DNA from: a virus
Lineage: Duplodnaviria > Heunggongvirae > Uroviricota > Caudoviricetes
Length of the DNA: 64,000 bases
Direction: 5' to 3' (one strand)
Virus record (IMG/VR): IMGVR_UViG_3300029705_000018
In this document: one piece after another, positions 30,947 through 61,037 of the stretch
Layout: each line of letters starts with the position of its first letter
Position numbering within the stretch: position 1 is the stretch's first letter
Position numbers and translations under genes: made by a program
The notes under the pieces: generated by a model
Seen by the model: the letters and a program-made list of their open reading frames with translations, nothing else
Database searches by the model: none
Told to the model about the DNA's origin: nothing

Positions 30947-30969
30947 TTTGGATAGAAAGGAGAGCAACA

Positions 30970-37440: not shown

Positions 37441-37652
37441 TGACTAAAGATAGAAAATACAGATACCTTGGCCGCAATGGTATTTTAGATACTAAGGTCC
37501 TTCTAGATGGTATCAATCATATCAATATCGTAACTATCAATGCTGATCCCGGCAAGATTTTAACTAATGGTGAGCGTACTCAGTACAGCGTCACTGTTGA
37601 AGAGGCCGAGGAACATAAGTGGAGAGAAATTACGGACAATACCAAAAAATAA
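37440..37652 (+). CDS. Small hypothetical protein of about 70 aa
   Basis: ATG overlaps the upstream TAA (TAATG). ORF-track entry 37413..37652. Confidence 0.45.
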   Translation: MTKDRKYRYLGRNGILDTKVLLDGINHINIVTINADPGKILTNGERTQYSVTVEEAEEHKWREITDNTKK

Positions 37653-37728
37653 GGTTATTTGATTTTTCAGTTCTAGGGAAGGGAAATTCCTTCCCTAGAA
37701 CAATATTATAAAGAAAGGAAGATATAAC

Positions 37729-39741
37729 GTGATTACAGTCTATAATAAAGATTATAAAGACCAATATACCGTTCTATTCCAAGACGCATATAACGTTTTA
37801 TTGGATATGCAGGCTAAAGATCCTCTTGGTGTAAAGATTAATCAGTCTGTTTTGGATAAAGGCAAAATCAGTTCTCTTGAAGAGTATTTTGCTCATATTG
37901 GTTATTTAGCAGATTATCACACTGAAAATATTAGAAATAATCCACCTTCTAATGTTGCATATCAAAACTCTGCTAAGTTCTTGATGCTTCCTATGGATGA
38001 AAAATACGATGTCAAGTCTGGCTGTTTTTACATTGACCTAAATACTAGAAATATTCAGGTTCCTGATATTTATAGTAAATATGGTGTTAGTGTTACTGGT
38101 GATCAGTTAGCCGAGACTTTGATGTTTAAGGTTCCTCGCTATTTCGATTATACTGACTTGGCTTCTACTGAAATTTATGTTCAGTGGACTAACCCAGCAG
38201 GAGACGAAGGTGCTTCTCGTATTGTCTTAGTTGACTTTGAAGCAGAAGAAGGTTATCTATTATTTGGTTGGCCTTTGACCAGTAAGGTTACTGTTGAAGG
38301 TAAAAATCCTTTGAAGTTCTCTGTTCGTTTCTTCGTAAGAAATGAAGAGAAAGAAATTCAGTACAGCTTAAATACTTTGGCTAGTTCTGTTATGATTAAG
38401 CAAGCTCTATATACTCATTTCAATGCTGACCTAGACATTGATGATCCATCTTTGTTGTTTGCGGCCGCAGTTGAAAATGGCGTTGACTCCAACATGACTC
38501 TACCTCAGATTCCTGTCTTCTTCTATGATTGGAAATTGGGTAATGACGAAGGAAAAGCTTTCTTAAAGAATGATGCAATTAAGCTATATGCTAGCGGTGC
38601 CACTGCTGATGCAGGTCAGTTGTGCTACAAGTGGTATTATACTCCTCGATTCATCGAAAATAATGTCGCTGTAACTAAAGATACTGAAGAAGTTTTCAAG
38701 GCTTACGCTGATGTAGATACTATCTTCAAGCCCACAAATGATACTGAAAAAGAAGCTGGCAAGACTTATTATGTTGAAGAAATCGAAGCTGAAACTGGCA
38801 ATCAGATTTATACTGTTTTCCTAGGCGATGCTTTTGAAGAGCCAGAAGAGGGAGAAGCTGCTCCTGTTTATTATGAGCAGGTAAGTGTTTATACCATTTT
38901 GGCTGTTGATGATGATGCTGAGGATTTGGGTGCTTCTACTGCGCTAGCACCTAATAAGAGATATTGGCCTCACGTCACCGGTGAATACAAGCTAACTTTG
39001 AACAATCAAGTTGGTAGTAGCAAATCTGCAGAGAGCGTTGATTCTTTGAAGTGCGTAATTCCTTGTGTTGAAAAAGTTGAGTTCACCGCAGATTTACCTA
39101 AGAACAAAGTTCTATCTACTATTGGCGAAGGCGAAGAGACTGTTAGCCAGGCTATTTTAACTGTTACTGTTGATGCAAATGACGGTGCTGAAAAGAGCTA
39201 TGTATGGTATGAAGCTGCTTCTTCTGACGCTGAATATGTTGAAGTTCCCAATGCTTCTAATGCTAGTATGACTGCTACTCAGCCAGGCTGGTATAAAGTT
39301 AAGGCTATCGGTACTTTGAACAGAGAGAGTATGTGGAAAGAAAGTTCTGAATGTAAGGTTACTTATCCTGCTGAAGCTCCTGAAATCGTCAAGTATCTAG
39401 TTGATGGTATCGAGTATCCTATTACAGATGATGACCCAACTTTAGAGAATGTTCCTGGCTTGAATACTCCTATTACCTTCAAGATTGAAATTGAAGAAAT
39501 GAATGAGTTCCAGACTGACGGTGTCACTTACAAGTGGTTCCGCAATACTCCTAACCAGAATGGTACTCCTATTAAGGATTCTGATCTAGATATTATTAGT
39601 GTAAATGGCAGTGAAATTACTGTTAAGCTATTAGCTAATAATGACTTGCCTGTTAATATTGCCTTCTATTACTGTGAAATCACTAATACTCTAGCAGGAG
39701 AAGAAAAGAAAACTACTTCTAAGGTATTCCAGATTTCTTAA
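37729..39741 (+). CDS. Structural or tail protein, 670 aa. GTG start. No TAG.
   Basis: Intact ORF. RBS AAAGGAAG. Confidence 0.7.
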   Translation: MITVYNKDYKDQYTVLFQDAYNVLLDMQAKDPLGVKINQSVLDKGKISSLEEYFAHIGYLADYHTENIRNNPPSNVAYQNSAKFLMLPMDEKYDVKSGCFYIDLNTRNIQVPDIYSKYGVSVTGDQLAETLMFKVPRYFDYTDLASTEIYVQWTNPAGDEGASRIVLVDFEAEEGYLLFGWPLTSKVTVEGKNPLKFSVRFFVRNEEKEIQYSLNTLASSVMIKQALYTHFNADLDIDDPSLLFAAAVENGVDSNMTLPQIPVFFYDWKLGNDEGKAFLKNDAIKLYASGATADAGQLCYKWYYTPRFIENNVAVTKDTEEVFKAYADVDTIFKPTNDTEKEAGKTYYVEEIEAETGNQIYTVFLGDAFEEPEEGEAAPVYYEQVSVYTILAVDDDAEDLGASTALAPNKRYWPHVTGEYKLTLNNQVGSSKSAESVDSLKCVIPCVEKVEFTADLPKNKVLSTIGEGEETVSQAILTVTVDANDGAEKSYVWYEAASSDAEYVEVPNASNASMTATQPGWYKVKAIGTLNRESMWKESSECKVTYPAEAPEIVKYLVDGIEYPITDDDPTLENVPGLNTPITFKIEIEEMNEFQTDGVTYKWFRNTPNQNGTPIKDSDLDIISVNGSEITVKLLANNDLPVNIAFYYCEITNTLAGEEKKTTSKVFQIS

Positions 39742-39759
39742 TAAAGGAGGTCAATAATT

Positions 39760-40407
39760 ATGTCACAGTTAAGTCAAACTGCTATTGACAAATTATATGA
39801 AATCCAAAGAAGTAATCCTCCAAAGATGGCTTCCATTCCATATGCGGAGGATTACATTGAAGTTGATTGGCGTACTCGCTCAATTGGAGAACGTGATATC
39901 CTAAGCACTGCTCGTGACCATAAATCCGAAAATTTATACTTTATCATGGATAGATATTGGGATTATATGGACTTGTCTACCACCACCTGTGTTATTTCTT
40001 ATAAGACTTATCCCGCAGACCCCCAGAAGCAAGGTGTGACTGGTTTATATGCCGTTCCATATTACGACATTTATACTCATAAAGCTACTCCTGGCACTTT
40101 GGAAAAGGATAAGATGGTTATTCCATGGTGTATTGATGGACGAGTAACTCAAGACGAAGCAGAAGTAGAATATGCCATTCGTTTTTATCGTGTTGATGCT
40201 GATGGAAAGAAAATCCTCTATAATATCAGCACCATGCCAAATGTTGGCAAAGTCCTATATGGACTAAACGTTCAGCCAAACGGCCTTGAAGACGCCGGAG
40301 ATCTAGCTGGTGATTATGATATTGCTAGTAGTATGTATGAACATTTTACTGACGAAATCAGAAAATTAAATCAGCAAGATATTTTTTGGATTGAATTTGT
40401 TTCATAA
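39760..40407 (+). CDS. Hypothetical structural protein, 215 aa
   Basis: Intact ORF with RBS AAGGAGG. A terminator follows at 40415. Confidence 0.7.
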   Translation: MSQLSQTAIDKLYEIQRSNPPKMASIPYAEDYIEVDWRTRSIGERDILSTARDHKSENLYFIMDRYWDYMDLSTTTCVISYKTYPADPQKQGVTGLYAVPYYDIYTHKATPGTLEKDKMVIPWCIDGRVTQDEAEVEYAIRFYRVDADGKKILYNISTMPNVGKVLYGLNVQPNGLEDAGDLAGDYDIASSMYEHFTDEIRKLNQQDIFWIEFVS

Positions 40408-40452: not shown

Positions 40453-40558
40453 TATTGGCCGAATAAAAATAATATACTAATCTCTTTTTTTATTTATATT
40501 AGAAAATAAAAAGAGATACTCTTTTTTTATAAAAATTTTTAGAAAAGGAGGAACATAT

Positions 40559-42664
40559 ATGGCAACTCTTCCACCCGATGGGATTTATAGTGGTTTTTAT
40601 ATTCGTTATTTTTTTGAAGGCGAAGAAATGACAGGCTACTATGGATCTAGTATGGGCATTTATAAAAGTGGAGATCCCGTCGAAGCGACAGTTACTTCAG
40701 ATTGGATTATTAATGGGCCTAATGGCGAAGCTGCTTTATGGTATTGGGATTCAAATTATTAGAATGAAATTCAAATTGGTAGTTCATTAAGTTTTCAAGC
40801 TCATATTTATTTAGATGATGGAATCTCCTTTGGAATTATCATATATGGAAAGAGAATGGATATCAAATTAAAGATGGGTGCGAAGACTGATCTTCCATCC
40901 AGTAAAAATAAAGGCACAGTATATTTTGCTAAAGATGGAGATAAAAACTTTGGTGAATTATATTATGATGATGAAAATGGCAATCGAGTAAAAATTGGCG
41001 GTAGCAATATTAGCAGCGCTAAATTTAAAATTTAGTATAATTCTAGCAATATTGATTTAGTTGATGGCCTTAGATTAGATTTAACTTTTGAAGATGGAAC
41101 TGTAATAGCTTCTAATTTTTTCCCTGAAGCAACAATATATAACCCTGGTTTAATGATGCCTGCCAAGAATAGTATTACAGAAATCCAATAGATGCCATTA
41201 GGATTGAAATCTTTTTATCCAGGCATTATAATTGGTACAATGCCTGCATTAGAATTAAATAACGGTTATGCCATTGGAATTGGAGATGCTGCAGTTTTAT
41301 TTGGAGATGATAGTACAGAATATAATAAAGTAGGAATAATTCAAAGTCCAGAAACTTTAATATTAGCTACAGAGGATTAGACCGCAGTGTTTAGTGTAAG
41401 CAATTAGGATAATACTCCAGGAATAGTGGCTATGGCTGGTGATGCAAGTTTTACGCTTGCAGAAGGTTATTTTTGGACAGGTTCCTTAGGAGCTGAATCT
41501 AATTATATTCCTACTGCTTATATTGAAGAACTTCATTCCACTTCAATCAATGCAGCCCAGTTTGAAGGAGCTTTTGCTGGAGATTTAGAAGGTACAGCTA
41601 GAGATGCAACTTCTTGGACCAATGCAATTCTTTTAAATGGCACTGAAGTTAAAGGCGGAGAAACTGAAGCAATTACTACTGCTAAATGGGGTGCTGAACG
41701 CAATATCTCTATTTCTGGCACTGCCGGCACAACTGGAACTATTGTTGATGGTTCTAATGAAGATGGTTATACTCTAATCATTCCCGCAACTATGATTGGT
41801 TTCACTAGCATCACTTCTACTAATTTATTGGCAACTAACTTAGGAGCTGCTGGAGCCCCAGTTGAAGTTGCTCATTTTAAAGAAACTTATTTCCATAATC
41901 CTAATAATAATAACTATAAGCATAAGCTAACAAGTAATGCTGGTTCTGCTGATTGTGAATTACAGCTACCTAATACTTCTGGCTTAATTGTTACTAAGGC
42001 TAGCACTACTGCGGCCGTTGGTGGTCTGAATGCACCAGTGTTTGTTGCTGCGAGCGGTGAAGTTACTGCTTGTTCTACTGTCTCTGTCGAGCATGGTGGT
42101 ACTGGCGCTAACTCTTTAAGTGCTTATTCTTTATTATATGGCAATGGAACTAATGCAGTAGGACAGGTTACTCCTATGGCCGCAGGCCGTATTTTAGTAT
42201 CTGGCGGTACTACTTCTGCTCCTCTATATGCTAGCCCAAGTTTAAGTTTCAGCACAGGCGCTTCTAATCCAACTATTAGTTTTGTCATTAATGGTGCTAC
42301 TTATACTTCTACTAATGGCATTCAATCTGCTACTGGCGAAAATCCTGGTCTAGTTTCTACTACTACTCAGACTTTTGCAGGAGCAAAGACTTTTACTGGA
42401 GCTGTTAATTTTAGCGCTGGTATCACAAGTACAACAGGTACATTCTCTGGACAAATCAATGCTACAAACATCAAGTTGAGTGGTCAATTGAAGAGTCATT
42501 CCGCAGGTACTTCTTATCTAACTTTGACTGATACTAAAGCAACTGTGACTTCTCCAACTGTTTATTTAAATGGTACAACTATCGTTCTAAATTCTAGTAA
42601 TTATGGTCCTACTTTACCAACTACTAATTTAGAAGAAGGTCGAATTTTCTTCTTATTGACTTAA
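40559..42664 (+). CDS. Tail fibre-like protein of about 701 aa with 5 in-frame TAGs at 40760, 41033, 41189, 41378 and 41405.
   Basis: ORF pieces 40559, 41192 and 41426 are all in frame 2. Gaps contain only TAG. TAA at 42662-64. Confidence 0.65.
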
Positions 42665-42696
42665 TAAAATCTAGGTGAGAAAGGAGAAAATATACA

Positions 42697-44871
42697 ATGG
42701 CAACTTATGATTGCACTATAAATGGTGTTCGTGCAAGAGTTGCTGCCACTGGAGTCTACTGGTTTGGACCCTCTGGCGGCAACCTAGGCACTTCTACAAC
42801 TGACGATGAAGGTTGGGGCGTTAATGATGGAGAAGATTTCTTCGGTGGAAATGTCAACCCCATGGCTTGTGATCCAAGCGGTAATAGTAAATTTACAGTT
42901 GCTATCAAAGTAACTACTCCAAATTTATCAAATGTTACTATTAGTGCTTTAACAATTACAGTTCAAGGTTTTGACCATACTTACAAAGGTCTTACTTCTA
43001 CTTATCCATTATATGCTAGTTTAAGAACTACTTCTACAAGTAGTAGTAGTGATACTTACAGCACTTTTAGAAATTACGCAATTGGAAGTGAGGCTAGTAC
43101 CAGTTCTCTTACTGGAAATTCTCTAAATCTTAATACTTGGTCTCCTACTTTCTACGGATCTTTTTCCCCAAATACTTCATATTATTTATTCTTATATACT
43201 AAATCTACAAGCCAAATTTATGGTTTTTATCACAGTGGCGCAATTTGCACTGATGCTTATGTTACTTATACTCAAAATGCAGCATCTTATACTGTAAGTT
43301 TGAGTAAAGGTACTGGTATCAGTTCTGTAAGTGGCGGTGGCACTTATACAGAAGGCGATTTAGTAACCATTAGAGCTACTCCATCTTCTGGATATAGCTT
43401 TGTAAACTGGACAGGTTCAGAAACTTCAACCGCAAACCCTTATAGTTTTTATATTTATGGTAATAAGTCTTATACTGCTAACGCAAGTTCTGCGACTTAT
43501 TTAGTTCAATATAAAGCTGGTACTTATGGTTCTGGTACAGAGAGTTCTGTTTATAAAACTCATGGTACAAATTTAACCTTAAAAGGAGTGCAATTCACTC
43601 GTTCTGGTTATACTCAAACTGATTGGGCTTCTGACGCCGCAGGTACGGTATGGGTAAATACCTTAAATGGAACTTATCAGACAGATGCTCCTGCAACTTT
43701 TTATCCATATTGGACACCCAATGTATATACATTAACCATTAATCCAAATGGTGGTACAATGTATAACGGTGACAATACTACTTCAAGTCCTTTTACCACA
43801 GAATTCTCTTATGGTACTCTAACTTATATTGGTAATTTAGATAGTTACGAAGGATACTAGCCAGACAATAAGCCAACAAAACCTGGTTATACTTGTACTG
43901 GATTTACTTTCTCTGGAGGCTCAGGTCAATAGAATACTAGTGGTGCTACTTTCTATTTTATGGGCGATAATCCAGCCGCCGCAATGGTTACTGCTTCTGA
44001 TACTCGCTCTTGGGTTTTCAATGGTAATTATGCTGGCAATGTAACTGCGACTGCAGAATGGGTTGGAAATACTTATACTGTTGTTTATAATGCTAATGGT
44101 GGTACTGGTTCTATGGCTAATACATCTCATACTTATGGTGAAGGCTCTAGTTTAAGAACTAATAGTTTTACCCATTCTGGTTATACCTTTACCGGATGGA
44201 ATACCAAAGAAGATGGAACAGGAACTACATATGCTAATAATGCTGTAGTAACTGATTTAACAACTACTGCCGGAGGAACTGTTACTTTATACGCTCAATG
44301 GGGTGAAGCCACTTATACAGTTATTTTCAATCTAAATGGTGGTAGTATTCAAAGTGGTGATTTTAGTAATATGACTTGTGCTCGTAATACTAATTATACC
44401 ATTCCTACTGGAACCATTGCAGCCAATGGCTTAATCTTCTTAGGATGGTCTACATCATCTTCTGCTACGACTGCGACTTATGAAGCTGGAGATACTTTCA
44501 ATAATATTGGAGCCGCAGGCGCAACAGTTATTTTATATGCAGTTTGGGATACAAAAGAGTTTACAATTAAATATCATGACAATAGCAATGGTAATACATT
44601 AAGTGTTAGTTGTATTCCTGCAGCTACCACCAATACTTTTAGAACTCTTCCTTCTGGATGGACGAAGGATGGCTATGAAGCTATTGGTTGGAGTAGATCT
44701 GCATCTGCCACTTCTCCTGACTATCGATTTGGTCAAGGATTTGTTGATGATTTAGGCGTAGCAGATGGAGCTACTTTAAATTTATATGTTGTTTGGACCC
44801 TGTAGCAACCATGGACTCTGACTCAATTATATATGTATATTGATTCTAGAGATTCATTTGTTCAATTCTAA
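42697..44871 (+). CDS. Tail fibre or adhesin of about 724 aa with about 5 Flg_new (Listeria-Bacteroides/InlB B-repeat) repeats. 3 in-frame TAGs at 43858, 43930 and 44803.
   Basis: ORF pieces 42697 and 43960 are both in frame 1. Repeated YTVxxNxNGG...GYTFxGW...TLYAxW motif. TAA at 44869-71. Confidence 0.65.
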
Positions 44872-44892: not shown

Positions 44893-45300
44893 ATGGACTG
44901 GATGGTTATGTTATATCAAATTTTTGAACTTTGCGTTATTCCTCTCTTGGGTGTATTGACTATGTACTTAGTTCAATTCATTAAAATGAAGAGCCAAGAA
45001 ATCGCAGATAAGACTGATAGTGAATTAGCAGATAAGTACATTCAAATGCTTGCTGATACTATCACTACTTGCGTTATCGCAACTAATCAGACTTATGTTG
45101 AATCTTTGAAGAAGCAAGGTAAGTTTGATGCAGAAGCTCAGAAGGAAGCTTTCAATTTGACTTATAATGCAGTTATGTCTGTATTAACTGATGAAGCTAA
45201 GCATTATTTGGCTTCCATTTATGGCGACTTGACCGCCTACATTACTAGTCGTATTGAGGCTGAGGTTAATGTAAGTAAGATTGTTCCTGTTACTGAGTAA
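44893..45300 (+). CDS. Small membrane protein of 135 aa with an N-terminal transmembrane helix. Holin candidate.
   Basis: Intact ORF. Hydrophobic N-terminus MDWMVMLYQIFELCVIPLLGVLTMYLV. A strong terminator follows. Confidence 0.5.
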   Translation: MDWMVMLYQIFELCVIPLLGVLTMYLVQFIKMKSQEIADKTDSELADKYIQMLADTITTCVIATNQTYVESLKKQGKFDAEAQKEAFNLTYNAVMSVLTDEAKHYLASIYGDLTAYITSRIEAEVNVSKIVPVTE

Positions 45301-45310
45301 TTGCGGAGAT

Positions 45311-45353
45311 ACCCGAAAAATACCTAAAAAGTATTTTTCGGGTATTTTTTTTT
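45311..45353 (+). terminator. Rho-independent terminator after the holin-like gene
   Basis: acccgaaaaatacctaaaaagtatttttcgggt followed by a 9-T run. Confidence 0.75.
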
Positions 45354-45363
45354 GTCATTCGCA

Positions 45364-45496
45364 GGACCTCAAAAAGTTATGTCCCGGTATTCTTACGGTC
45401 CATTTTTGGTTATTTTTCATTCCAGTCGCGGTCCATTTTCGGTTAGGGTTCGGTCCTCGTTTGGACAAATTAGGGTAATTTTTCGGTCCTAATTTT
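45364..45496 (+). repeat. Array of four direct CGGTCC(A/T)...TTT 13-14-mers plus one inverted GGACC, in a non-coding stretch
   Basis: cggtccatttttgg at 45397, cggtccattttcgg at 45429, cggtcctcgtttgg at 45451, cggtcctaatttt at 45484 and ggacc at 45364. Confidence 0.6.
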
Positions 45497-45554
45497 CATA
45501 AAGCTATGAGGGGATTGGATAAAATATTTTTTGTATGGAGAGGAGACCTTACAT

Positions 45555-45989
45555 ATGTACTCAAACTATAATTATTATCCACAACAACCCTAGCAAGTCG
45601 CCCAATAGCAACCAGTGTACCAACCATTGTCTTACTTACGACAGGCGCCGCCGCAAGCAGGACTGAAAGGACGCTTGGTAGCATCATTGGAAGAGGCCCG
45701 TGCAACCTCTATTGACTTTGATGGTTCTGTATTCTACTTCCCAGATTTAGCGAACAGACGAATCTACACAAAACAAATAAATATGGATGGCACCGCATCA
45801 CTGTGTGTGTATGAATTAAGGGAAATGCCCGTTTAGAGAGAAGAGAGCGGTTCTGTTCCATCCGTTGAGAAATTTGTAACGAGAGAAGAGTTTGAGCAGG
45901 TCCTGGCGCAACTACAAATGCTCCAGAAGCCAACCGAGCCGGCCGTATCTGCCCCCGCAAAAGAAAAAGTAGAATTAATGTCATTCTAA
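45555..45989 (+). CDS. Hypothetical protein of about 144 aa with a Q/Y-rich N-terminus (YNYYPQQP-Q-QVAQ-Q-QPVYQ) and 3 in-frame TAGs at 45591, 45606 and 45834.
   Basis: ATG at 45555 after GGAGAGGAG. Frame 0 is continuous to the TAA at 45987-89. ORF-track piece 45615..45836 is in the same frame. Confidence 0.55.
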
Positions 45990-45999
45990 GGAGGTATGA

Positions 46000-46254
46000 A
46001 TGATGTATCCAGTAAACCCAAATAAATTAATCCAAATGATTAAATCCGGGCAAAATCCTCAGCAATTGATGTTATCAATTTTGAAAGGACAAGCCTATGA
46101 TAATCCCCTCGGAAAAAATCTCCTAAATTTAGCTCAATCTGGTCGCACTGTCGAATTAGAGAAAGTAATTCGCAACCTTTACGCCCAGTAGGGCGGTCAA
46201 AATTTCGACCAGGAGTTCGAAGCCTTTAAACGTGCATTAGGCTACAACACTTAA
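46000..46254 (+). CDS. Hypothetical protein of about 84 aa with 1 in-frame TAG at 46189
   Basis: ORF 46000..46191 continues in frame to the TAA at 46252-54. Confidence 0.5.
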
Positions 46255-46275
46255 AATTTAAGGAGGAAAAAAATT

Positions 46276-46992
46276 ATGTTCAATGGAAAAGGTTATAATT
46301 TATCTGATATCGCTGCTGTAACCCGTGGAAGTGGTACTGGTTTCGGTGGAGATGGCGACGGCGCATGGTGGCTGTTACTGTTATTCCTGTTTGCGGGATG
46401 GGGTAATGGTGGCTATGGCGGCGGCCTTGGCGCAGGTAACGCTCGCGACGCTGTTTCTTATGGCTTTGATATCAACAATCTAGAAAATGGAATCCGTGGA
46501 CTAGAGCATGGTCTATGCGATGGTTTCTATGACATGAACACTTCTTTGCTAACTGGTTTTGGTAATGTTACTATGGGTAATATGCAGAACACTAACGCCA
46601 TTATGGGCCGTTTGTGTGATATGTCCGCAGAGCAAGCTGCTTGTTGCTGCGAAACTCAGCGCTTGATTGAGAGAGGTTTGTGCGAAGTCAACTATAATAT
46701 CTTGACTCAATCTAACGCAACTAATACTAATATTGCCAATGCCGCGAGAGATATTATTGAAAACAATAATAATGGTGTTCGCTCTATCTTAGACTTCTTG
46801 ACTCAGGATAAGATTGCTACTTTGCAGGCTGAAAATCAGGCTTTGCGCTTGACCGCTTCTCAGCAAGCTCAGAACGCTTTCTTGATCGACCAGTTAGGAA
46901 CTAAGGCTCCTATTCCTGCATACATGGTAGCTAATCCATATGCTAGCTATGGTTGTGGTATGAACTACTATGCTGGATGTGGCTGCAACTAA
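46276..46992 (+). CDS. Gly/Cys-rich hypothetical protein of 238 aa with one hydrophobic segment (WWLLLLFLFAGW)
   Basis: Intact ORF with RBS AAGGAGG. GC content is visibly higher than in the flanking DNA. Confidence 0.65.
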   Translation: MFNGKGYNLSDIAAVTRGSGTGFGGDGDGAWWLLLLFLFAGWGNGGYGGGLGAGNARDAVSYGFDINNLENGIRGLEHGLCDGFYDMNTSLLTGFGNVTMGNMQNTNAIMGRLCDMSAEQAACCCETQRLIERGLCEVNYNILTQSNATNTNIANAARDIIENNNNGVRSILDFLTQDKIATLQAENQALRLTASQQAQNAFLIDQLGTKAPIPAYMVANPYASYGCGMNYYAGCGCN

Positions 46993-47011
46993 TATCTAAG
47001 GAGGAAAGTAT

Positions 47012-47434
47012 ATGGAAATTATTGCTAATGCTGTTCAAACAGTTCCCGCAAATCAGAATGTTTATTTCACTGATTCTGTTACTTCTGGAAATTATTCTAT
47101 CGAGCATCGTGATGGTAGTGGATTGGTGACTCTTCGCGGAGTCACCAATACTCAGTGCCGCGCCCGTTTTAGAGTACATTTCGGCGCAAATGTCGCGATT
47201 GCAGAAGGTGGCACCGTCGGACCAATTTCCTTAGCTATCTCTTTGGATGGTGAAGCGGTTCCAGCTACAATTATGACTGTCACCCCTGCCGCAGTTGGAG
47301 ATTTCTTCAATGTGAGCGCATCTATCTTTATTGATATTCCAAAAGGATGCTGCTCTCATGTGGCCGTGAAGAATATTTCTACTCAGCCAATTGATGTACA
47401 AAATGCAAATCTAATTGCTGAACGTTCTGCGTAA
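47012..47434 (+). CDS. Small 140-aa protein resembling the BclA C-terminal (C1q/TNF-like jelly-roll) domain
   Basis: Intact ORF with RBS AAGGAGG. Pattern NQNVYFTD...GNYSIEH..GSG.VTL..G.Y...F is typical of exosporium BclA_C-like domains. The call rests on motif recall only. Confidence 0.6.
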   Translation: MEIIANAVQTVPANQNVYFTDSVTSGNYSIEHRDGSGLVTLRGVTNTQCRARFRVHFGANVAIAEGGTVGPISLAISLDGEAVPATIMTVTPAAVGDFFNVSASIFIDIPKGCCSHVAVKNISTQPIDVQNANLIAERSA

Positions 47435-47445
47435 GGAGGGATAGT

Positions 47446-48027
47446 ATGGACCACGAAAGATTAAAACACATGAAAGAAACTTTAATGTGTGCTGTTGAAG
47501 TACAATTATGTGATTTGGGTGAAGTAGATACTAAAGAGCTTGGAGAAGCTATTGATATGATTAAAGATTTAGAAGAGGCAATCTACTATTGCACCGTTAC
47601 AGAAGCTATGAACAACTCTTCACACGAAATGGAGTTTGAAATGAAAAAAGGCGGCCATCACCAGTAGGAAAATGGTGACAGCCGCATGTATTATGACAGA
47701 AATCGTAGAAGTGATGGTACATTCTATGCTGACAATGATAATTCTTCTTCTTCTGGAATGAATAGTTCTAATGGAAGAAATTATTACGATGACCCAGGTA
47801 TGTGGCGCGATGAGCGCGAAGGCCGCAGTTATAATAGTCGTAGAATGTATATGGAAGCCAAGGATATGAAACGAGATAAAGCTACTCAATTGCGTGAGTT
47901 AGAAAAGTATATGCAAGAGCTATCTCTGGATATTACCGAAATGATTGCGGATGCTTCTCCAGAAGAAAAAGCATATCTTGAAAAGAAGATAACCGCATTG
48001 GCTTCTAAAATTGGTCAAATGAAATGA
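47446..48027 (+). CDS. Hypothetical protein of about 193 aa with 1 in-frame TAG at 47665. TGA stop.
   Basis: ORF pieces 47446 and 47686 are both in frame 1 and joined by a TAG. RBS AAGGAGG. Confidence 0.55.
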
Positions 48028-48335
48028 TTATAAATGGCGTGCGCTGGCGGGTCCGGTTGGTCTCGCCAGCCCATCCAATGCTACTTACGCCTTGGAGAAC
48101 TCACGCTCTTGGAGTTTGTGATAAAGTCACATAGACTATATGTATAGACAAGACTCTTTCCCCTCAACAACTAAAAGAAGTCTTATGTCATGAATTAGTT
48201 CATGCTTTTATGTTTAGCTATGCTGTGGATTTATCATATGATGAAGAGGAAATGGTAGCAGAGCTTATGACTGAATATGGAGAAGATATATTAGAACGGA
48301 CAAACGCGATTTATAATGGTATAAAAATGAAATAA
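48024..48335 (+). CDS. HExxH zincin-like small protein of 103 aa (SprT/ImmA-IrrE-like motif ...ICIDKTLSPQQLKEVLCHELVHAF...) with 1 in-frame TAG at 48132. Not present in the ORF track.
   Basis: ATG 48024 overlaps the upstream TGA (ATGA). Frame 0 is continuous to the TAA at 48333-35 and was hand-translated codon by codon. Confidence 0.5.
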
Positions 48336-48380
48336 GGGTCGATTATGAATAATCATAATCGACCCCTTATTTTTTTTTGG
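48331..48380. terminator. Bidirectional terminator at the junction where the plus and minus modules converge
   Basis: aataagggtcgattatga...tcataatcgaccccttatt hairpin flanked by a T-run on plus and an A-run on minus. Confidence 0.65.
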
Positions 48381-48381: not shown

Positions 48382-48840
48382 TTAATCAACAACGTCGTCA
48401 TTATCAACTTTTAAGTCTAAAGCCATAGCCTTATCATAATAGATTTTAGCTTGACCGTTGCCACCCAAACCAGTATATAATTTATAGAACTCGGTTAACT
48501 GTTCCATCTGTGCAGGAGTAATATATCCCTGAGCTAAGAATCCTTTGCATAATTGTACTAAGCGGAAACGATAAGAAGCAATAATCAGATTCATATGAGT
48601 CTTCTCGATGTTCTCAGTTTCTCTGATATATTTTCTTAGTTCCTCTAATTCCTGATATACTGGTTCTAAATGGATCTCAATGGTGTCCTCGACATGTTGT
48701 CTCTCTTGGGCGGCGGCTAATTCTCTAGCGTTTCTTAATTCACGATTCAATTCACGAGTTTTGAACTTAGCATAACCAATTACACCGGCACTGATAAGAG
48801 CAAACAAAATCTCCATACCCCACTCAGCTAATAATTCCAT
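48382..48840 (-). CDS. Hypothetical protein of 152 aa with an N-terminal transmembrane helix followed by coiled coil
   Basis: Intact ORF. TAA stop. RBS AAAGGGGG. Confidence 0.6.
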   Translation of the reverse strand: MELLAEWGMEILFALISAGVIGYAKFKTRELNRELRNARELAAAQERQHVEDTIEIHLEPVYQELEELRKYIRETENIEKTHMNLIIASYRFRLVQLCKGFLAQGYITPAQMEQLTEFYKLYTGLGGNGQAKIYYDKAMALDLKVDNDDVVD

Positions 48841-48904
48841 TTAAAGTATCCCCCTTTCTAACTTCTCTGACATTTATAAGAAGTTGGATAGGGGGATTTA
48901 TTAG

Positions 48905-49390
48905 TTAGGACCAATCGAATACTTCGACCTTATTTTTGGTATAATGAGCGCCAATACAAATAGCATCACATTCATCCTGTGTTGGTTTTACATTATAGGT
49001 TTTTACAACCCAATCTTGTGCGGCTTTCTTCTAGGCTGGACGATCTTTTCCCTTGATACCAAGAGAAGATTTCCAGACGGTAGAAAGAACGGCGGTTCGA
49101 GGCATTTTCATTTCAACAAATAATTCATGTAAAACGCCAAATACCTCAGCCAATGCTTTAAAGGTGGCTACATTATTGACAACATTATTTTGAAGTTGAA
49201 TATCTTCAAAGACGACTTCGTCAATATCAAACTTCTCAATTAAACCAATAACTTCCTTGCGAATAAAGTGAAGTCTATCTCCAACATCGGTTTGAGTTGC
49301 GGAGAACTTGCCATAATTGTAAAGTTCACCATCATCAAATACTGCCCAACCAGTCACGCGACTGGCCTGGTCCAATGCAAGAGTTCTCAC
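48905..49390 (-). CDS. ruvC: RuvC-like Holliday junction resolvase of 161 aa. The C-terminal catalytic motif (DECDAICIGAHY) is reached only by reading the TAG at 49031-33 as sense.
   Basis: N-terminus MRTLALDQASRVTGWAVFD matches RuvC motif I. After the TAG the frame runs 42 more codons to the TAA at 48905-07. Those codons resemble RuvC ...QADAADALAIAITH. GTG start overlaps the dUTPase TGA. Confidence 0.8.
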
Positions 49391-49926
49391 TTAGAAGTAG
49401 AACCGAATCCGCCAGTGCGTTCGCCCATTACCACATCATCAGAAGTGATACCATATGGAAGAATGGTTGCCTGACCGATTGCGTCACCTTTCTTAATTTG
49501 AATATTAAATGGAGATAGATTGTAAATCTGGAAGAAAATCTCACCTTCATTATCGGGGTTATTGTAGTAATCAGCATCGATAATACCAATGCCGTTACCC
49601 AACATCAACCAATATTTCAAGGGAGAGGAACTGCGGACACTTAGTTGTAACCAAGAGCCAGGATCTAACTTACACTTCATTCCAGTAGAAACAAGAGTTG
49701 GCTTGAAACCAATCTTCTTAGTAAAGTCAGCCATTTGTTCCAGACTTACATATTCATCGACCTCAACAGGCCATAATAATTTTGCTTCTTCACACATCAA
49801 AGGAAGAGAAGGAATTACATAATCCTCTGCGGCGACCATGTCATATCCTGCGGATTGACTGGTTTTACGGACCGGCATAGCTAAGTCCGCGTCCGCATAC
49901 TTAGAAACTTTTTCAAAATGTGCCAT
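49387..49926 (-). CDS. dut: dUTPase / dCTP deaminase family protein, 179 aa
   Basis: Motifs SAGYDM, RSS, GIIDADY and GERTGGFGST. TGA stop. Confidence 0.85.
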   Translation of the reverse strand: MAHFEKVSKYADADLAMPVRKTSQSAGYDMVAAEDYVIPSLPLMCEEAKLLWPVEVDEYVSLEQMADFTKKIGFKPTLVSTGMKCKLDPGSWLQLSVRSSSPLKYWLMLGNGIGIIDADYYNNPDNEGEIFFQIYNLSPFNIQIKKGDAIGQATILPYGITSDDVVMGERTGGFGSTSK

Positions 49927-49931
49927 GATGA

Positions 49932-50174
49932 TTAACCCCTTTCATAAGTGACGGTATAAACATCCTCGGGGTCTTTCTCATTAGTGAAAATCTTAGTAGC
50001 AGTAACTACTTGATATTCTTCAATAACTTCACCCTTAGCCTTAATTTGCTTAGTCTTATAACTAAAAGCAGTTAGGTCAAAAGTGGGATCATCTAGTAAT
50101 TGTTCATGAAGAGCCTCAACATCGGCAATGGTGGGAACTCTATAAGTATCAACAGCTTTTAATAAATATTTCAT
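49932..50174 (-). CDS. Hypothetical protein, 80 aa
   Basis: Intact ORF. ATGA overlap with the upstream gene. Confidence 0.55.
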   Translation of the reverse strand: MKYLLKAVDTYRVPTIADVEALHEQLLDDPTFDLTAFSYKTKQIKAKGEVIEEYQVVTATKIFTNEKDPEDVYTVTYERG

Positions 50175-50449
50175 CTTATTACCTCTACAACAATATTATT
50201 TCGACTATAATTCATTTTTGAGTAAGCAAGAATATCTTCGGAAACAGCATTACCGAAAACACTATTGCCACTCAAATATACATGATCAATTTTCTTTTCA
50301 TTACTGATTGTACTGATTACCTCTGGAAGTCCTTCCATGGTGGTAATTGCTACGCACTCTTTATCTCCAGTATCTGTATCAACGATATAGACTCTCTGGT
50401 GCAAATCGAACATATGTAATTCACAATAAATTCTTTTCATTTCATTCAC
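50171..50449 (-). CDS. Hypothetical protein, 92 aa
   Basis: Intact ORF. GTG start. TGA stop. Confidence 0.5.
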   Translation of the reverse strand: MNEMKRIYCELHMFDLHQRVYIVDTDTGDKECVAITTMEGLPEVISTISNEKKIDHVYLSGNSVFGNAVSEDILAYSKMNYSRNNIVVEVIR

Positions 50450-50939
50450 CTACCTGAACTAAGCCACTATCATAAGGGAACAGATATAGACAGGTTGGGC
50501 CGTCATCTGTTTCCACCCAAATCTCCACGGCAGTGCCAGGTTCGTCGGGGTCAATGGCTTTAATTTTTCCCACATTTCGCAGACAATCAAGAACCTCTTG
50601 TGCGAAATACTGAGGCTCAATTAGTTTGAATACAGTAAAATAAGAAATCTCTTTACCGTAAAGCATATAGTATTTATTACGATACATTTCATGTAATGCT
50701 TCAATGGTTTGGATTGCCTTATTTAAATCAGCCAACTCAGGAAGCTGGGCGATAATTTGTTTATTCAAATCATATAGACCTAAATTCAAGCCTGCGCCAT
50801 CAGTTCTCATTGTAACCCAATGACCGTCATGATATACGCGAATTTCACCTGAAATGGAATCTTGAATTACTTCTCCTTCCATTGGTTCAAAATTGACTTG
50901 TGAAAGGTCCATTTTCTTGACAGTGAGTTTACTTCCCAT
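50442..50939 (-). CDS. Hypothetical protein, 165 aa
   Basis: Intact ORF downstream of the consensus promoter at 50970..50998. Confidence 0.6.
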   Translation of the reverse strand: MGSKLTVKKMDLSQVNFEPMEGEVIQDSISGEIRVYHDGHWVTMRTDGAGLNLGLYDLNKQIIAQLPELADLNKAIQTIEALHEMYRNKYYMLYGKEISYFTVFKLIEPQYFAQEVLDCLRNVGKIKAIDPDEPGTAVEIWVETDDGPTCLYLFPYDSGLVQVGE

Positions 50940-50969
50940 ATCAAGACCTCCTTTTACTCTTTATACTAA

Positions 50970-50998
50970 ATTATATCAATTTTTTTTATGTAAGTCAA
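50970..50998 (-). promoter_or_regulatory. Consensus promoter TTGACT-N17-TATAAT (minus strand). Identical 30-mer to the copy at 58562.
   Basis: Reverse complement reads TTGACT tacataaaaaaaattga TATAAT. Overlaps the nrdG stop and precedes gene 50442..50939. Confidence 0.7.
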
Positions 50999-51458
50999 TT
51001 ATACGCTGGTTGCGAGAGCCTCTCATTTCTAGAGTCAAATCTCGCTCTGCTTCAATATATGGACCGTCGATTAGGACGTCCGCTAATTCCAGACATGATT
51101 TGACATGAGGGTCGCCAGACCGCAATAATTCTTCATAAGTGTAGCCGCTCCAAATATATATCTTCACTTCTGGAAGCTTATGTCTTACCTCTTGGAGAAT
51201 CAAATTTACCAGAAAAGCATTTGCTTCACACAAAGGTTCACCGCCCATAATACATAAATTACGCTTGATTCCTTGTGCGGTTAGTCCTTCTAAAATCTTA
51301 TGTAAAGTATTATTTGTAAACTCCTTACCTCCATCAAAGGCCCAGGTGCCAGGATTATGACACCCAGGACAATGATGAGGACAGCCTTGTGTAAAAAAGC
51401 TTACACATAAACCTGGAGCAGCGGTGATATCATTTAGTATCAATCCACTGTATCTCAT
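50976..51458 (-). CDS. nrdG: Anaerobic ribonucleotide reductase activating protein (radical SAM)
   Basis: CxxxCxxC cluster GCPHHCPGCHNP. Length 160 aa. Adjacent to nrdD. Confidence 0.9.
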   Translation of the reverse strand: MRYSGLILNDITAAPGLCVSFFTQGCPHHCPGCHNPGTWAFDGGKEFTNNTLHKILEGLTAQGIKRNLCIMGGEPLCEANAFLVNLILQEVRHKLPEVKIYIWSGYTYEELLRSGDPHVKSCLELADVLIDGPYIEAERDLTLEMRGSRNQRIIDLHKKN

Positions 51459-51505
51459 AGTTATCTCTCTTTCTTATAGCGTAGCTAAGTTGTAGTTAGC
51501 AACAG

Positions 51506-53725: not shown

Positions 53726-53729
53726 TTAA

Positions 53730-53760
53730 AAACCCTACATCTTGTGTAGAGGGCAAAATT
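53730..53760 (-). terminator. Rho-independent terminator (minus strand) after the kinase gene
   Basis: Reverse complement reads gccctctacacaagatgtaggg followed by tttttaatt. Confidence 0.55.
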
Positions 53761-53797
53761 TCTCTACTAAATATGGGTTTATGGATTGATCACTTAA

Positions 53798-54364
53798 TCA
53801 ATCTCGTCCTTGGGCGAATGTGGTCTCGGTCTGGTACACAATCTCTTCAGGGCCAGTCCAACCGTCCAATTCAGTGGCGTTTCTAATTTCAAAAAATGGG
53901 AAATCAATCTCGCCAAAATCAGAATAGTCAGCTAAGAAGCGACGACAAACTTCCTTGACGTCAGGATCTTCTTCTCGATTCAACTGACGCATTAGACGCA
54001 ACTTATCGGGCGTCCGCAAACGAATAGCTAGAACTTCACAATCCCCACGAGCCAAGAGATCATGGATGCCTTGAGGATTGAAAACTCCAACATTGATATT
54101 ATCTTCAACCACAGACTCGGTACTTGTGCCGTAATACCAATTATTGAACATTACACATTCAAGCATTTGGTCATTGTTAATTTTTTCTTTGAACTCATCC
54201 ATTGTGTGATAAAAATAATTCACACCATGCTGTTCACCCTGTCTCATAGGACGAGTAGTACAGCTAATAATTTTATGCCAGTCAGGTCTCATAGCGAGGA
54301 CCTTATTCAACATAAAGTCCTTGCCGGAGCCTGCCTCGCCAAACAAAGCAACGATTTTATACAT
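53798..54364 (-). CDS. Guanylate-kinase-like (d)NMP kinase of about 188 aa. The start is assumed to be the internal Met just before the P-loop.
   Basis: P-loop GEAGSGKD. TTRPMRQGEQHGVNYFY matches the guanylate kinase TTRxxRxGExxGxxYxF motif. ORF-track entry 53798..54400. Confidence 0.65.
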   Translation of the reverse strand: MYKIVALFGEAGSGKDFMLNKVLAMRPDWHKIISCTTRPMRQGEQHGVNYFYHTMDEFKEKINNDQMLECVMFNNWYYGTSTESVVEDNINVGVFNPQGIHDLLARGDCEVLAIRLRTPDKLRLMRQLNREEDPDVKEVCRRFLADYSDFGEIDFPFFEIRNATELDGWTGPEEIVYQTETTFAQGRD

Positions 54365-54365
54365 T

Positions 54366-54560
54366 TTATTCATCCTCGAACTCATATTCAATACTGCCAT
54401 TTTTAGTAGTGCTTGTTGTAGTCGTTCCGCAATTCAAACACTCATAGCAGTGCTGTGCAGGATAAGTACAGAGTGTATGAGTGCAACGCATGGGCTTACC
54501 GCACTCTTCACAGACAATCTGCACAACATACATAGCTTTTACTTTTCTTTTTTGGATCAT
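54366..54560 (-). CDS. Small Zn-ribbon protein, 64 aa
   Basis: Two CxxC pairs (CEECG...CYECLNCG). Confidence 0.5.
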   Translation of the reverse strand: MIQKRKVKAMYVVQIVCEECGKPMRCTHTLCTYPAQHCYECLNCGTTTTSTTKNGSIEYEFEDE

Positions 54561-58526: not shown

Positions 58527-58561
58527 TCTATTATCCTCTTTCTTTTTACTTATTATACTAT

Positions 58562-58590
58562 ATTATATCAATTTTTTTTATGTAAGTCAA
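58562..58590 (-). promoter_or_regulatory. Consensus promoter TTGACT-N17-TATAAT (minus strand) upstream of the polymerase gene
   Basis: Reverse complement reads TTGACT tacataaaaaaaattga TATAAT. RBS AAGAGGA before the pol ATG at 58526. Confidence 0.7.
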
Positions 58591-60422: not shown

Positions 60423-60427
60423 ACTTA

Positions 60428-61028: not shown

Positions 61029-61037
61029 ATATCCTCC

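What the first reader, a model, noticed from the sequence alone, without database searches (positions are those of the whole stretch)
45364..45496. Array of CGGTCC-containing direct repeats in a non-coding spacer
Four copies of cGGTCC(a/t)..TTTyGG lie 22-33 bp apart, plus one inverted GGACC. They sit directly after a strong terminator and before the GC-rich small-gene island. The spacing is roughly helical, which suggests cooperative binding of a regulator (late activator or repressor) or an iteron-like element. No tRNA structure could be folded here.
Basis: seen in the sequence. Interest (0 to 1): 0.5.

Follow-up and report, generated by a model that had tools for sequence, protein, structure and literature searches.

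The report
Helically phased regulator sites before phage cassette
In this gut phage the word GGTCC, or a weaker version of it, recurs exactly every 11 bases (one turn of the DNA helix) for about 130 bases just upstream of a conserved promoter, which looks like a docking platform for a still unknown regulatory protein controlling a widespread six-gene cassette of unknown function.

Summary
CGGTCC occurs at 45396, 45429, 45451 and 45484, with an inverted GGACC at 45364. The spacings are 33, 33, 22 and 33 bp, all multiples of 11. No other pair of GGWCC words lies within 70 bp anywhere in the 64-kb window.

The intervening 11-bp nodes carry weaker words (GGTAT, GGTTA, GGACA, GGTAA). Together they form a 12-node lattice from 45364 to 45489. 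It starts just after a terminator and runs into a promoter-like core with no -35 consensus, ahead of a conserved six-gene operon (A-F, 45555-48335).

In 42 distinct homologous leaders from metagenomes, GGTCC words fall on the same 11-bp lattice (Rayleigh R = 0.92 at period 11). Only the five word positions carry information; the spacers carry none. The array region as a whole is about 58% identical between lineages. A close relative differs from the window by an exact 11-nt indel that removes one repeat.

No RNA structure, Rfam family, tRNA or replication gene supports another reading. The most likely reading is a helically phased DNA-binding array for a cooperative regulator, more likely an activator. 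The regulator was not identified. The iteron or origin reading is not supported. This is a new member of a known kind and of moderate interest.

The parts
45305..45357 (+). Intrinsic terminator after the holin gene (19-bp stem, then a T-run). Its loop region holds ATACCT-N5-AGTAT. The terminator sequence is conserved together with the cassette in other phage backgrounds.
   Evidence: Similar ACCCGAAA..TTTCGGGTATTTTTTTTT hairpins precede the leader in L048, L066, L072, L089, L139 and L140, where the upstream genes differ.
45364..45368 (+). Node 11 of the lattice: GGACC, the inverted word.
   Evidence: It lies 33 bp upstream of the next GGTCC.
45386..45390 (+). Node 9: the weak word GGTAT. It corresponds to the AGGTAT arm of the ATACCT-N4-AGGTAT palindrome of most relatives. 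Node 10 (45375-45379, AGTTA) is degenerate.
45397..45401 (+). Node 7 (GGTTA, 45408-45412) follows 11 bp later.
   Evidence: Most relatives have a GGTCC directly after GGTATTnTTn.
45419..45423 (+). Node 6: the degenerate word ATTCC. Relatives have (A/C)ATTCC at the equivalent node.
45430..45434 (+). Node 4 (GGTTA, 45441-45445) follows 11 bp later. This repeat is missing from close relatives through an exact 11-nt indel.
   Evidence: L152 against the window; L054.
45452..45456 (+). It is the most widely conserved GGTCC node in the family.
   Evidence: 11 of the 45 upstream GGTCC occurrences in the 42 leaders fall at this node, more than at any other..
45461..45469 (+). Node 2: the TTGGACAAA box (GGACA at 45463). 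The box T(T/A)GG(A/G)C(A/G) is nearly invariant in the leader family. It lies about -44 from the inferred transcription start.
   Evidence: It is kept even in the divergent leader L033.
45474..45479 (+). Node 1: GGTAA(T). It overlaps the only candidate -35 position, where the match to TTGACA is poor.
   Evidence: One search finds no sigma-70-type promoter on the + strand here.
45485..45489 (+). Most relatives have CCATCC, CCGTCC or a similar variant here; about six leaders share the window's CGGTCC.
45497..45502 (+). Candidate -10 hexamer CATAAA. Relatives have CATAAT, TATAAT, TACATA or CACTAT, and divergent leaders have CATATAAT. The inferred start is near 45509.
   Evidence: This is an inference; no transcription start site data were available.
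45506..45554 (+). Highly conserved untranslated leader ATGAGGGGATTGGATAAAATATTTTTTGTATGGAGAGGAGACCTTACAT, with the ribosome-binding site GGAGAGGAGACC at 45537-45548. Length differences of +1 and +2 nt between relatives rule out coding.
   Evidence: About 83% nt identity across lineages.
45555..48335 (+). Six-gene cassette: A 45555-45989 (in-frame TAG at 45591, 45606 and 45834), B 46000-46254, C 46276-46992, D 47012-47434, E 47446-48027, F 48024-48335. It is colinear in all relatives long enough to show it.
   Evidence: Relatives of the holin gene (L001-L003) lack the whole block.

Best explanation
The repeats are the strong nodes of a 12-node, 11-bp-period lattice of GGTCC-type words (45364-45489). 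This is a DNA-level docking array for a sequence-specific protein that binds cooperatively along one face of the helix. It lies directly upstream of, and runs into, the promoter of a portable six-gene cassette. The core promoter has a usable -10 hexamer (CATAAA; TATAAT-like in relatives) but no -35 match. The most likely mechanism is therefore activation. Protein bound at the nearly invariant TTGGACA box (about -44) and at the GGTCC nodes at about -55, -77, -110 and -143 would recruit or stabilise RNA polymerase, with the extra upstream nodes adding cooperativity. Repression by spreading over the -35 region and the spacer nodes is the main variant of the same model.

Shown here: the lattice, its conservation, word-only information content, site gain and loss in 11-bp steps, and linkage to the conserved promoter and operon. 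Inferred: that a protein binds, that it activates, and where transcription starts. The protein itself was not identified; it could be encoded by the phage outside the window, by the host, or by the cassette.
For: 1. The window spacings are 33, 33, 22 and 33 bp, and this is the only GGWCC cluster in 64 kb.
2. In 42 distinct homologous leaders, GGTCC starts fall at -3-11n from a conserved anchor, with n = 0, 3, 4, 5, 6, 7, 8, 9 and 11. Rayleigh R is 0.92 at period 11, against 0.54 at period 10 and 0.62 at period 12.
3. GGTCC is 16-fold enriched in the upstream region: 45 observed against 2.8 expected, in 28 of 41 leaders.
4. In the pooled lattice matrix, information sits only in positions 2-6 (R-G-T-C-C) and is absent from the 5-nt spacers. 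Period 11 gives the highest summed information: 1.65 bits, against 1.00 at period 12 and 0.5 or less at the other periods tested.
5. A close relative shows an exact 11-nt indel that removes one repeat. The ATACCT-N4-AGGTAT palindrome, which is two inverted words 11 bp apart, sits at -59, -70 or -81, again in 11-bp steps.
6. The array region is only about 58% identical between lineages, whereas the core plus untranslated leader and gene A are each about 83% identical. This is the pattern of binding-site turnover under constraint on word and phase.
7. No sigma-70-type promoter with a -35 match is found in the window or in L033, although L033 and L024 have a perfect TATAAT.
8. Among 1.06 Mb of fetched loci, clusters of 3 or more GGWCC occur almost only in these leaders, and there with 11n spacing.
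9. There is a precedent in Firmicutes phages. Late activators of the Ltr superfamily bind 2-4 short direct repeats upstream of an otherwise silent promoter (PMC3753634).
Against: No DNA-binding protein was identified. There is no HTH, winged-helix, RHH or sigma Pfam hit among 72 window ORFs. Cassette proteins A-E have no family assignment. The gene A model is not AbrB-like, and the gene B model is too poor to use.

The transcription start is inferred only. The leaders are related by descent, so counts and Rayleigh statistics overstate independence. Unit-length indels could arise from slippage alone. The strongest argument is therefore the word-only conservation against a 58% identical background, not the indels. 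More divergent cassettes (L024) lack the array, so it is not essential for cassette expression in every lineage.
Confidence: 0.6

Rival explanations
1. A decaying tandem duplication, that is a slippage-prone 11-, 22- or 33-bp minisatellite with no function. The periodicity would be a historical trace.
For: Copies 1 and 2 share 17 of 18 bases (CGGTCCATTTTYGGTTA). One unit is gained or lost between close relatives, as slippage would produce.
Against: A neutral repeat should decay evenly over all 11 positions. Here only the five word positions carry information and the spacers carry none. The same lattice is occupied at different nodes in lineages whose array regions are only about 58% identical. 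The phase is fixed relative to the promoter core, not only between the repeats.
Confidence: 0.08
2. Intrinsically curved or UP-element-like DNA. Phased T-tracts would bend the DNA and stimulate the promoter without any dedicated protein.
For: In the window several units end in T4-5 tracts in phase (CCATTTTTGG, TTATTTTTCA, TAATTTTTCG). Upstream curved DNA is known to stimulate promoters in Firmicutes (my own knowledge, not checked here).
Against: Across the family the spacer positions carry no information, whereas GGTCC does. In most relatives the spacers are CTCTTC, ACGGC or CGTTG rather than A or T tracts. The -38 to -59 stretch is not AT-rich.
Confidence: 0.08
3. An iteron array of a replication origin, or a parC-like centromere bound by an initiator or adaptor protein.
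For: The period is 11 bp, as in the ten 11-bp parC repeats of plasmid R1 and the three 11-bp repeats bound by RepB of pMV158 (PMC9943647 and PMC4753449, listed; the R1 details are from my own knowledge). The array overlaps a promoter, as parC does. An AT-rich flank and a hairpin lie nearby.
Against: No initiator, ParM/ParA-type or ParR-type gene is detectable in the cassette or next to it. The replication genes lie at least 3 kb away on the other strand. The array moves with the cassette at a fixed distance from its start codon in many phage backgrounds, which does not fit a genome origin. Only 5 bp per unit are conserved.
Confidence: 0.07
4. An RNA-level element. The array would be part of a long 5' leader, with GGUCC repeats binding an RNA-binding protein or pairing with the AGGAGACC ribosome-binding site.
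For: GGTCCT is partly complementary to AGGAGACC. The words are strongly strand-biased, 45 GGTCC against 5 GGACC.
Against: RNAalifold finds no conserved pairs in the array (energy 0.0). There is no covariation between CCATCC/CGGTCC and the GGATGG/GGATTGG variants (by inspection). Rfam gives no match. A strong terminator lies immediately upstream and no promoter-like site lies between it and the array. Conservation of an 11-nt phase relative to the -10 region is a property of DNA. The 5' leader folds no better than shuffled sequence (z = +0.9).
Confidence: 0.05
5. Sub-terminal binding sites for a recombinase or transposase that moves the cassette. The array would mark the left end of a mobile element.
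For: The array sits at the left boundary of a block that is absent from relatives of the holin gene. The block occurs in many unrelated phage backgrounds. Phased sub-terminal repeats are typical of Tn7 and Mu ends (my own knowledge).
Against: There is no recombinase in the cassette. No matching inverted array lies at the right end, where only a terminator is found at 48336-48380. The lattice is anchored to the promoter and start codon rather than to a terminal inverted repeat.
Confidence: 0.05

Closest known systems
Repeat regions bound by late activators of the Ltr superfamily (RinA, ArpU, LtrC, Alt/DUF1492) in phages of Gram-positive bacteria (PMC3753634)
   Same: Short direct repeats in several copies lie just upstream of a promoter that is silent without the phage activator. 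The setting is a Firmicutes phage. Specificity resides in the repeats.
   Different: Ltr repeats are 7 nt long and occur in 2-4 copies. They lie immediately after the ltr gene and in front of terS. Here the words are 5 nt long on up to 12 nodes. The array lies after the holin gene and in front of an accessory cassette, and no Ltr-like gene is detected in the window.
Tandem boxes of the OmpR/PhoB family of response regulators (pho box; B. subtilis PhoP TT(A/T/C)ACA repeats; OmpR F1-F3 and C1-C3 sites). From my own knowledge.
   Same: Direct-repeat half-sites with a period of 10-11 bp. Contiguous arrays run from about -40 to -100. The arrays replace a missing -35 element. Conserved words alternate with A/T-rich spacers.
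   Different: The word sequence is different. No winged-helix regulator has been identified. The array here is longer (about 130 bp) and is capped by an inverted word or palindrome.
parC centromere of plasmid R1 bound by ParR; 11-bp direct repeats bound by RepB of pMV158 (PMC9943647, PMC4753449)
   Same: The unit is exactly 11 bp. There are many units. The array overlaps a promoter (parC). Binding is cooperative on one face of the helix.
   Different: Those units are conserved over most of their 11 bp. They are linked to partition or replication genes, which are absent here.
Filaments of P2 Cox or lambda Xis on phased direct repeats (PMC3936717)
   Same: A small phage protein oligomerises on direct repeats spaced about one helical turn apart. 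It can repress or activate a neighbouring promoter.
   Different: Cox boxes are longer (about 9 bp; my own knowledge, not checked here) and lie at the lysis-lysogeny switch or the attachment site. No Cox- or Xis-like gene has been found here.
CtsR operator (A/GGTCAAA-NAN-A/GGTCAAA) of Firmicutes
   Same: A GGTC-containing heptad in direct repeat close to a promoter.
   Different: It was tested and fails. No match with 3 or fewer mismatches lies in the array. The period is 10 bp rather than 11, and the word is GGTCAAA rather than GGTCC.

Membership tests
Ltr-type late-activator repeat region (RinA/ArpU/LtrC/Alt) | 2-4 direct repeats of about 7 nt upstream of the regulated promoter | tested here: inconclusive
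   Direct repeats lie upstream of a promoter that lacks a -35 element. However, the conserved word is 5 nt long and occupies up to 12 nodes of an 11-bp lattice.
Ltr-type late-activator repeat region (RinA/ArpU/LtrC/Alt) | Repeats lie immediately downstream of the activator gene and upstream of terS | tested here: not met
   The upstream gene is a holin (phrog_13712). The downstream genes are an accessory cassette, not terS.
Ltr-type late-activator repeat region (RinA/ArpU/LtrC/Alt) | A cognate Ltr protein is encoded by the phage | tested here: inconclusive
   There is no sigma-70 region 4, RinA, ArpU or DUF1492 hit among 72 window ORFs. The window covers only about 64 kb of a genome of about 203 kb.
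Plasmid or phage iteron origin | Tandem repeats of 17-22 bp conserved over most of their length | tested here: not met
   Only 5 of 11 positions carry information. Composite 22-bp units are seen only in the window lineage.
Plasmid or phage iteron origin | An adjacent initiator (rep) gene, or a location at the origin of replication | tested here: not met
   No Rep-like family is found in the cassette or among its neighbours. The array travels with the cassette.
R1 parC-type centromere | Arrays of 11-bp direct repeats flanking or overlapping the promoter of the operon | tested here: met
   There are 12 nodes at an 11-bp period, and they run into the -35 region and the spacer.
R1 parC-type centromere | The operon encodes an NTPase (ParM or ParA) and an adaptor protein (ParR) | tested here: not met
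   Proteins A-E have no Pfam, NCBIfam or PADLOC family. F is a small protein with a weak match to the ImmA/IrrE (Peptidase_M78) HExxH domain.
OmpR/PhoB-type box array | Direct-repeat half-sites at a 10-11 bp period that replace the -35 element | tested here: met
   The period is 11 bp. The words are oriented, 45 GGTCC against 5 GGACC. No -35 consensus is present.
OmpR/PhoB-type box array | Bound by a winged-helix response regulator | not testable with these tools
   This needs a binding assay. No Trans_reg_C hit is found in the window.
CtsR operator | RGTCAAA-NAN-RGTCAAA | tested here: not met
   No match with 3 or fewer mismatches lies in 45300-45560.
Known structured RNA or tRNA | A match to an Rfam covariance model or a tRNA fold | tested here: not met
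   ARAGORN finds 0 genes. Rfam gives only chance-level hits, with E above 1. RNAalifold finds no pairs in the array.

The most novel reading that the evidence does not exclude
The lattice may not be an ordinary activator site. It could be the assembly track of a helical nucleoprotein filament, like those of ParR, Cox or MraZ, formed by an unknown phage protein. The track would run from the module's own terminator, through the palindrome, into the promoter. A single filament could then both insulate the cassette and switch it on, in step with the TAG-to-glutamine code switch of the phage. The track length would be tuned in 11-bp steps as the module moves between phages.
Probability: 0.15. Interest if true: 0.65.

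Novelty: new member of a known kind. Interest (0 to 1): 0.45.

Why it matters
The array is the control region of a six-gene cassette of unknown function. The cassette's D protein has at least 7,967 homologues in metagenomes, all unnamed. The cassette sits after the lysis genes in many gut Firmicutes phages, including TAG-recoded phages of about 200 kb. A sharply defined and easily mutated binding lattice gives an experimental handle. DNA-affinity capture could identify the regulator. Reporter fusions could show when the cassette is expressed. The 11-bp step offers a clean test of face-of-helix dependence. It is also a clear natural example of binding-site turnover that keeps word and phase while the rest of the sequence drifts.

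Tried and rejected
2. Gene B as a small helix-turn-helix protein. The model has pLDDT 58 and is not usable.
3. RNA leader or riboswitch. RNAalifold finds no conserved pairs in the array, and the untranslated leader folds no better than shuffled sequence. Rfam gives nothing.
4. An upstream ORF in ATGAGGGG...ATG. Length differences of +1 and +2 nt between relatives rule it out.
5. CtsR operator. No match.
6. Promoter types sigma-B, sigma-H, sigma-54, ECF, sigma-E/K, and GerE or SpoIIID boxes, compared by eye with consensus sequences recalled from memory. None fits consistently across the family. TTGGACAA matches the SpoIIID consensus WWRRACAR in the window, but this does not hold in many relatives.
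7. A regulon search. There is no second array in the window or in the flanks of relatives.
8. A scan of viral contigs for the exact repeat gave only 2 unrelated hits.
9. Annotated phages in GenBank do not contain this leader. Butyrivibrio phage Ceridwen and Dulem virus 33 carry only relatives of genes C and D, with unrelated upstream DNA.
10. A defence-system assignment for the cassette. PADLOC gives none.

Full report
**Observation.** Reading 44900-46100 shows CGGTCC on the + strand at 45396, 45429, 45451 and 45484, and GGACC at 45364. CGGTCC occurs 9 times in the window on both strands, against 4.5 expected. Four of these lie within 94 bp. GGTCC (26) and GGACC (18) are at the frequency expected from base composition over the whole window, about 22 each. 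Even so, this is the only place where two such words lie within 70 bp of each other. The four spacings are 33, 33, 22 and 33 bp, all multiples of 11. The repeat finder recovers the family CGGTCCATTTTTGG / CGGTCCATTTTCGG / CGGTCCTCGTTTGG. A strong terminator (19-bp stem at 45305-45349, then a T-run) lies directly upstream, after a holin gene at 44893-45300 (phrog_13712).

**Context.**
- The window is part of a large phage. The same sequence lies on a 203-kb metagenome contig.
- Many + strand genes contain in-frame TAG codons. The first gene after the repeats reads MYSNYNYYPQQP-TAG-QVAQ-TAG-QP... Independent gene calls on ENA contigs read it through as 144 aa.
- This fits TAG-to-glutamine recoding as described for gut phages (bioRxiv 10.1101/2021.08.26.457843 and PMC9523058).
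- Downstream of the repeats lies a six-gene operon, A-F (45555-48335). It is GC-richer than its surroundings.
- Phages whose holin is 63-67% identical (L001-L003) go straight from the holin terminator to the convergent minus-strand genes. The block from the repeats to gene F is therefore an inserted module.

**Relatives.**
- The D protein (47012-47434) led to 14 viral loci and 3 genome loci from Clostridia, Acutalibacteraceae and "Bacilli" MAGs.
- A metagenome scan for the 16-mer at the start codon of gene A, after filtering, raised the set to 42 distinct leaders.
- Wherever the contig is long enough, A-B-C-D-E-F are colinear.
- The last roughly 95 nt before the ATG, comprising the promoter-like core and the untranslated leader, are about 83% identical to the window. 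That equals the conserved part of gene A. The region upstream of this, which holds the repeats, is only about 58% identical.

**The lattice.**
- Measured from the ATG, or more precisely from the conserved CCTAATTTT block, GGTCC words in all leaders fall at -3-11n, with n = 0, 3, 4, 5, 6, 7, 8, 9 and 11.
- The Rayleigh statistic is 0.92 at period 11, 0.54 at period 10 and 0.62 at period 12.
- When the window is cut into 11-mers, every node carries a related word: aGGACC, aAGTTA, cGGTAT, cGGTCC, tGGTTA, cATTCC, cGGTCC, cGGTTA, cGGTCC, tGGACA, gGGTAA, cGGTCC.
- Pooling the nodes of all leaders, information is confined to positions 2-6 (R-G-T-C-C) and is absent from the five spacer positions. Period 11 gives more summed information than any other period from 8 to 14.
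- GGTCC is 16-fold enriched in this region. It is strongly oriented, with 45 GGTCC against 5 GGACC.
- A close relative in the same genomic context (L152) differs from the window by an exact 11-nt indel that removes repeat 2.
- Most leaders have a palindrome ATACCT-N4-AGGTAT, which is two inverted words 11 bp apart. It sits at -59, -70 or -81 from the anchor, again in 11-bp steps.
- Among 1.06 Mb of fetched loci, clusters of three or more GGWCC words occur almost only in these leaders, and there with 11n spacing.

**What the array abuts.**
- The conserved core reads T(T/A)GG(A/G)C(A/G) ... nnTAATTTTCC(A/G)TCCTAATTTT-yAyAww-NNN-ATGAGGGGA(T)GGATAA...TTTTTTGTATGGA(n)AGGAGACCTTACATATG.
- The hexamer yAyAww is CATAAA in the window and CATAAT, TATAAT, TACATA or CACTAT elsewhere. 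It becomes CATATAAT in two more divergent cassettes, L033 and L024.
- No sigma-70-type -35 partner is found in the window or in L033. In L024 the only + strand site found lies elsewhere, further downstream, and does not partner the TATAAT.
- I therefore place a promoter with a -10 hexamer but no -35 at 45497-45502, with a start near 45509. This is an inference.
- On that numbering the nodes are centred near -22, -33, -44 (the TTGGACA box, nearly invariant), -55, -66, -77 and so on to -143.
- L033 keeps GGAAA-N6-GGACA and the core. L024 keeps the core but has different upstream repeats (TTTGTG three times). The array therefore behaves as a lineage-specific regulatory input attached to a common core promoter.

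**Alternatives tested.**
- RNA. RNAalifold finds no conserved pair in the array. The untranslated leader folds no better than shuffled sequence. Rfam and ARAGORN find nothing. A terminator lies immediately upstream.
- Coding. Length differences of +1 and +2 nt in the ATGAGGGG...ATG stretch exclude an upstream ORF.
- Curvature. The spacers carry no information across the family, so phased T-tracts are not the conserved feature.
- Neutral minisatellite. Even decay is not seen. Only the word and its phase are kept, against a background of 58% identity.
- Origin or iterons. No initiator is detectable, and the array moves with the cassette.
- Mobile-element end. There is no recombinase and no inverted array at the right end.
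- CtsR operator. No match.

**Search for the regulator.**
- Pfam finds no DNA-binding or sigma domain in 72 ORFs of the window. The minus-strand block encodes NrdD, NrdG-like, PolIII-alpha, helicase, RecJ and dUTPase proteins.
- Cassette proteins A-E match no Pfam, NCBIfam or PADLOC family. F has a weak match to the ImmA/IrrE (Peptidase_M78) HExxH domain.
- The model of B is unusable.
- The binder remains unknown. It may be encoded in the roughly 140 kb of the genome outside the window, or by the host.

**Comparison with known systems.**
- In function the array resembles three known kinds. The first is the repeat regions of Ltr-type late activators of Gram-positive phages, which have 2-4 direct 7-nt repeats that are necessary and sufficient for activation (PMC3753634). 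The second is the tandem boxes of OmpR/PhoB-type regulators, which have an 11-bp period and replace the -35 element (my own knowledge). The third is 11-bp repeat tracks such as R1 parC or the pMV158 RepB bind locus.
- It is not a member of the Ltr class by position or by neighbouring gene.
- It is not an iteron origin, because there is no initiator and only 5 bp per unit are conserved.
- It is not a parC centromere, because there are no partition genes.
- It is not a CtsR operator.

**Verdict.** This is a genuine, conserved, helically phased array of protein-binding words controlling the promoter of a portable cassette. It is more likely an activator platform, but this is unproven, and the regulator is not identified. 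It is a new member of a known kind of cis-regulatory element. Interest is moderate, mainly because it gives a clean experimental handle on a very widespread phage cassette of unknown function in code-15 phages.

Noticed in passing
window 1-48335, + strand; for example 1882-11271, 11372-16972, 17360-20272, 20266-23169, 23533-25707, 40481-42664, 42679-44871: Many + strand genes carry in-frame TAG codons. The stretch 1882-11271 is a single reading frame of 3130 codons interrupted only by 36 TAGs. All eight ORFs of 100 aa or more that the standard code yields in this stretch lie in that one frame. ENA gene calls on identical contigs read TAG through. This fits TAG-to-glutamine (code 15) recoding. 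The minus-strand replication genes and the long genes at 25771-40407 are almost free of TAG.
   Followed up: partly
whole window: ARAGORN finds no tRNA gene, and so no suppressor tRNA-CUA, in these 64 kb despite heavy use of in-frame TAG. It must lie elsewhere in the genome of about 203 kb.
   Followed up: no
window 45555-48335: The six-gene cassette A-F has an unknown function. A has a Q/P/Y-rich N-terminus and a small beta-alpha-beta3 domain (weak PepSY-like model). B is predicted to be helical, from a low-confidence model. C has a hydrophobic, glycine-rich N-terminal stretch and a Cys-rich C-terminus (judged by eye). D looks beta-rich by eye and has a CC motif; its family has at least 7,967 metagenomic homologues, all labelled hypothetical or unnamed. 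E is acidic with an N/S/Y-rich low-complexity stretch. F is a small protein with a weak match to the ImmA/IrrE HExxH domain. The cassette is inserted between the holin terminator and the convergent genes when compared with relatives L001-L003. Relatives of C and D alone sit after the lysis genes in 40-kb phages such as Butyrivibrio phage Ceridwen and Dulem virus 33.
   Followed up: partly
window 45506-45554: The 5' leader ATGAGGGGATTGGATAAAATATTTTTTGTATGGAGAGGAGACC is as conserved as coding sequence (about 83%). It has two (A/U)UGGA motifs about 25 nt apart, one of them at the ribosome-binding site. A small invariant hairpin (GUAUG...CAUAU) could cover the ribosome-binding site and the start codon. 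This may be a translational control site, for example of the CsrA type. There is no covariation and no excess folding energy.
   Followed up: partly
window 45305-45357 and the equivalent positions in L048, L066, L072, L089, L139, L140: The terminator in front of the array is conserved in sequence along with the cassette, even where the upstream gene differs. Its loop carries the same ATACCT..AGGTAT-type palindrome roughly in phase with the lattice. The module seems to bring its own upstream insulator, which may also be part of the protein-binding track.
   Followed up: partly
L024 4300-4450: A more divergent copy of the same cassette keeps the core promoter (CATATAAT) but has a different upstream region. 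That region has three TTTGTG words and a divergently transcribed gene. This suggests that regulatory inputs are swapped on a common core promoter.
   Followed up: no
window 48382-64000, minus strand: This block encodes replication and nucleotide-metabolism genes: anaerobic ribonucleotide reductase NrdD with its radical-SAM activase, PolIII-alpha (1321 aa), a UvrD-like helicase, RecJ, dUTPase and guanylate kinase. It points to a strictly anaerobic host. The block converges on the cassette at about 48.35 kb, where the cumulative GC skew peaks.
   Followed up: no
window 42679-44871: The tail-fibre-like or adhesin-like gene directly upstream of the holin carries Listeria-Bacteroides repeat (Flg_new) domains. 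ENA calls it as a single 724-aa protein when its 3 in-frame TAGs are read through. A BspA-type LRR protein is also encoded somewhere in the window.
   Followed up: no
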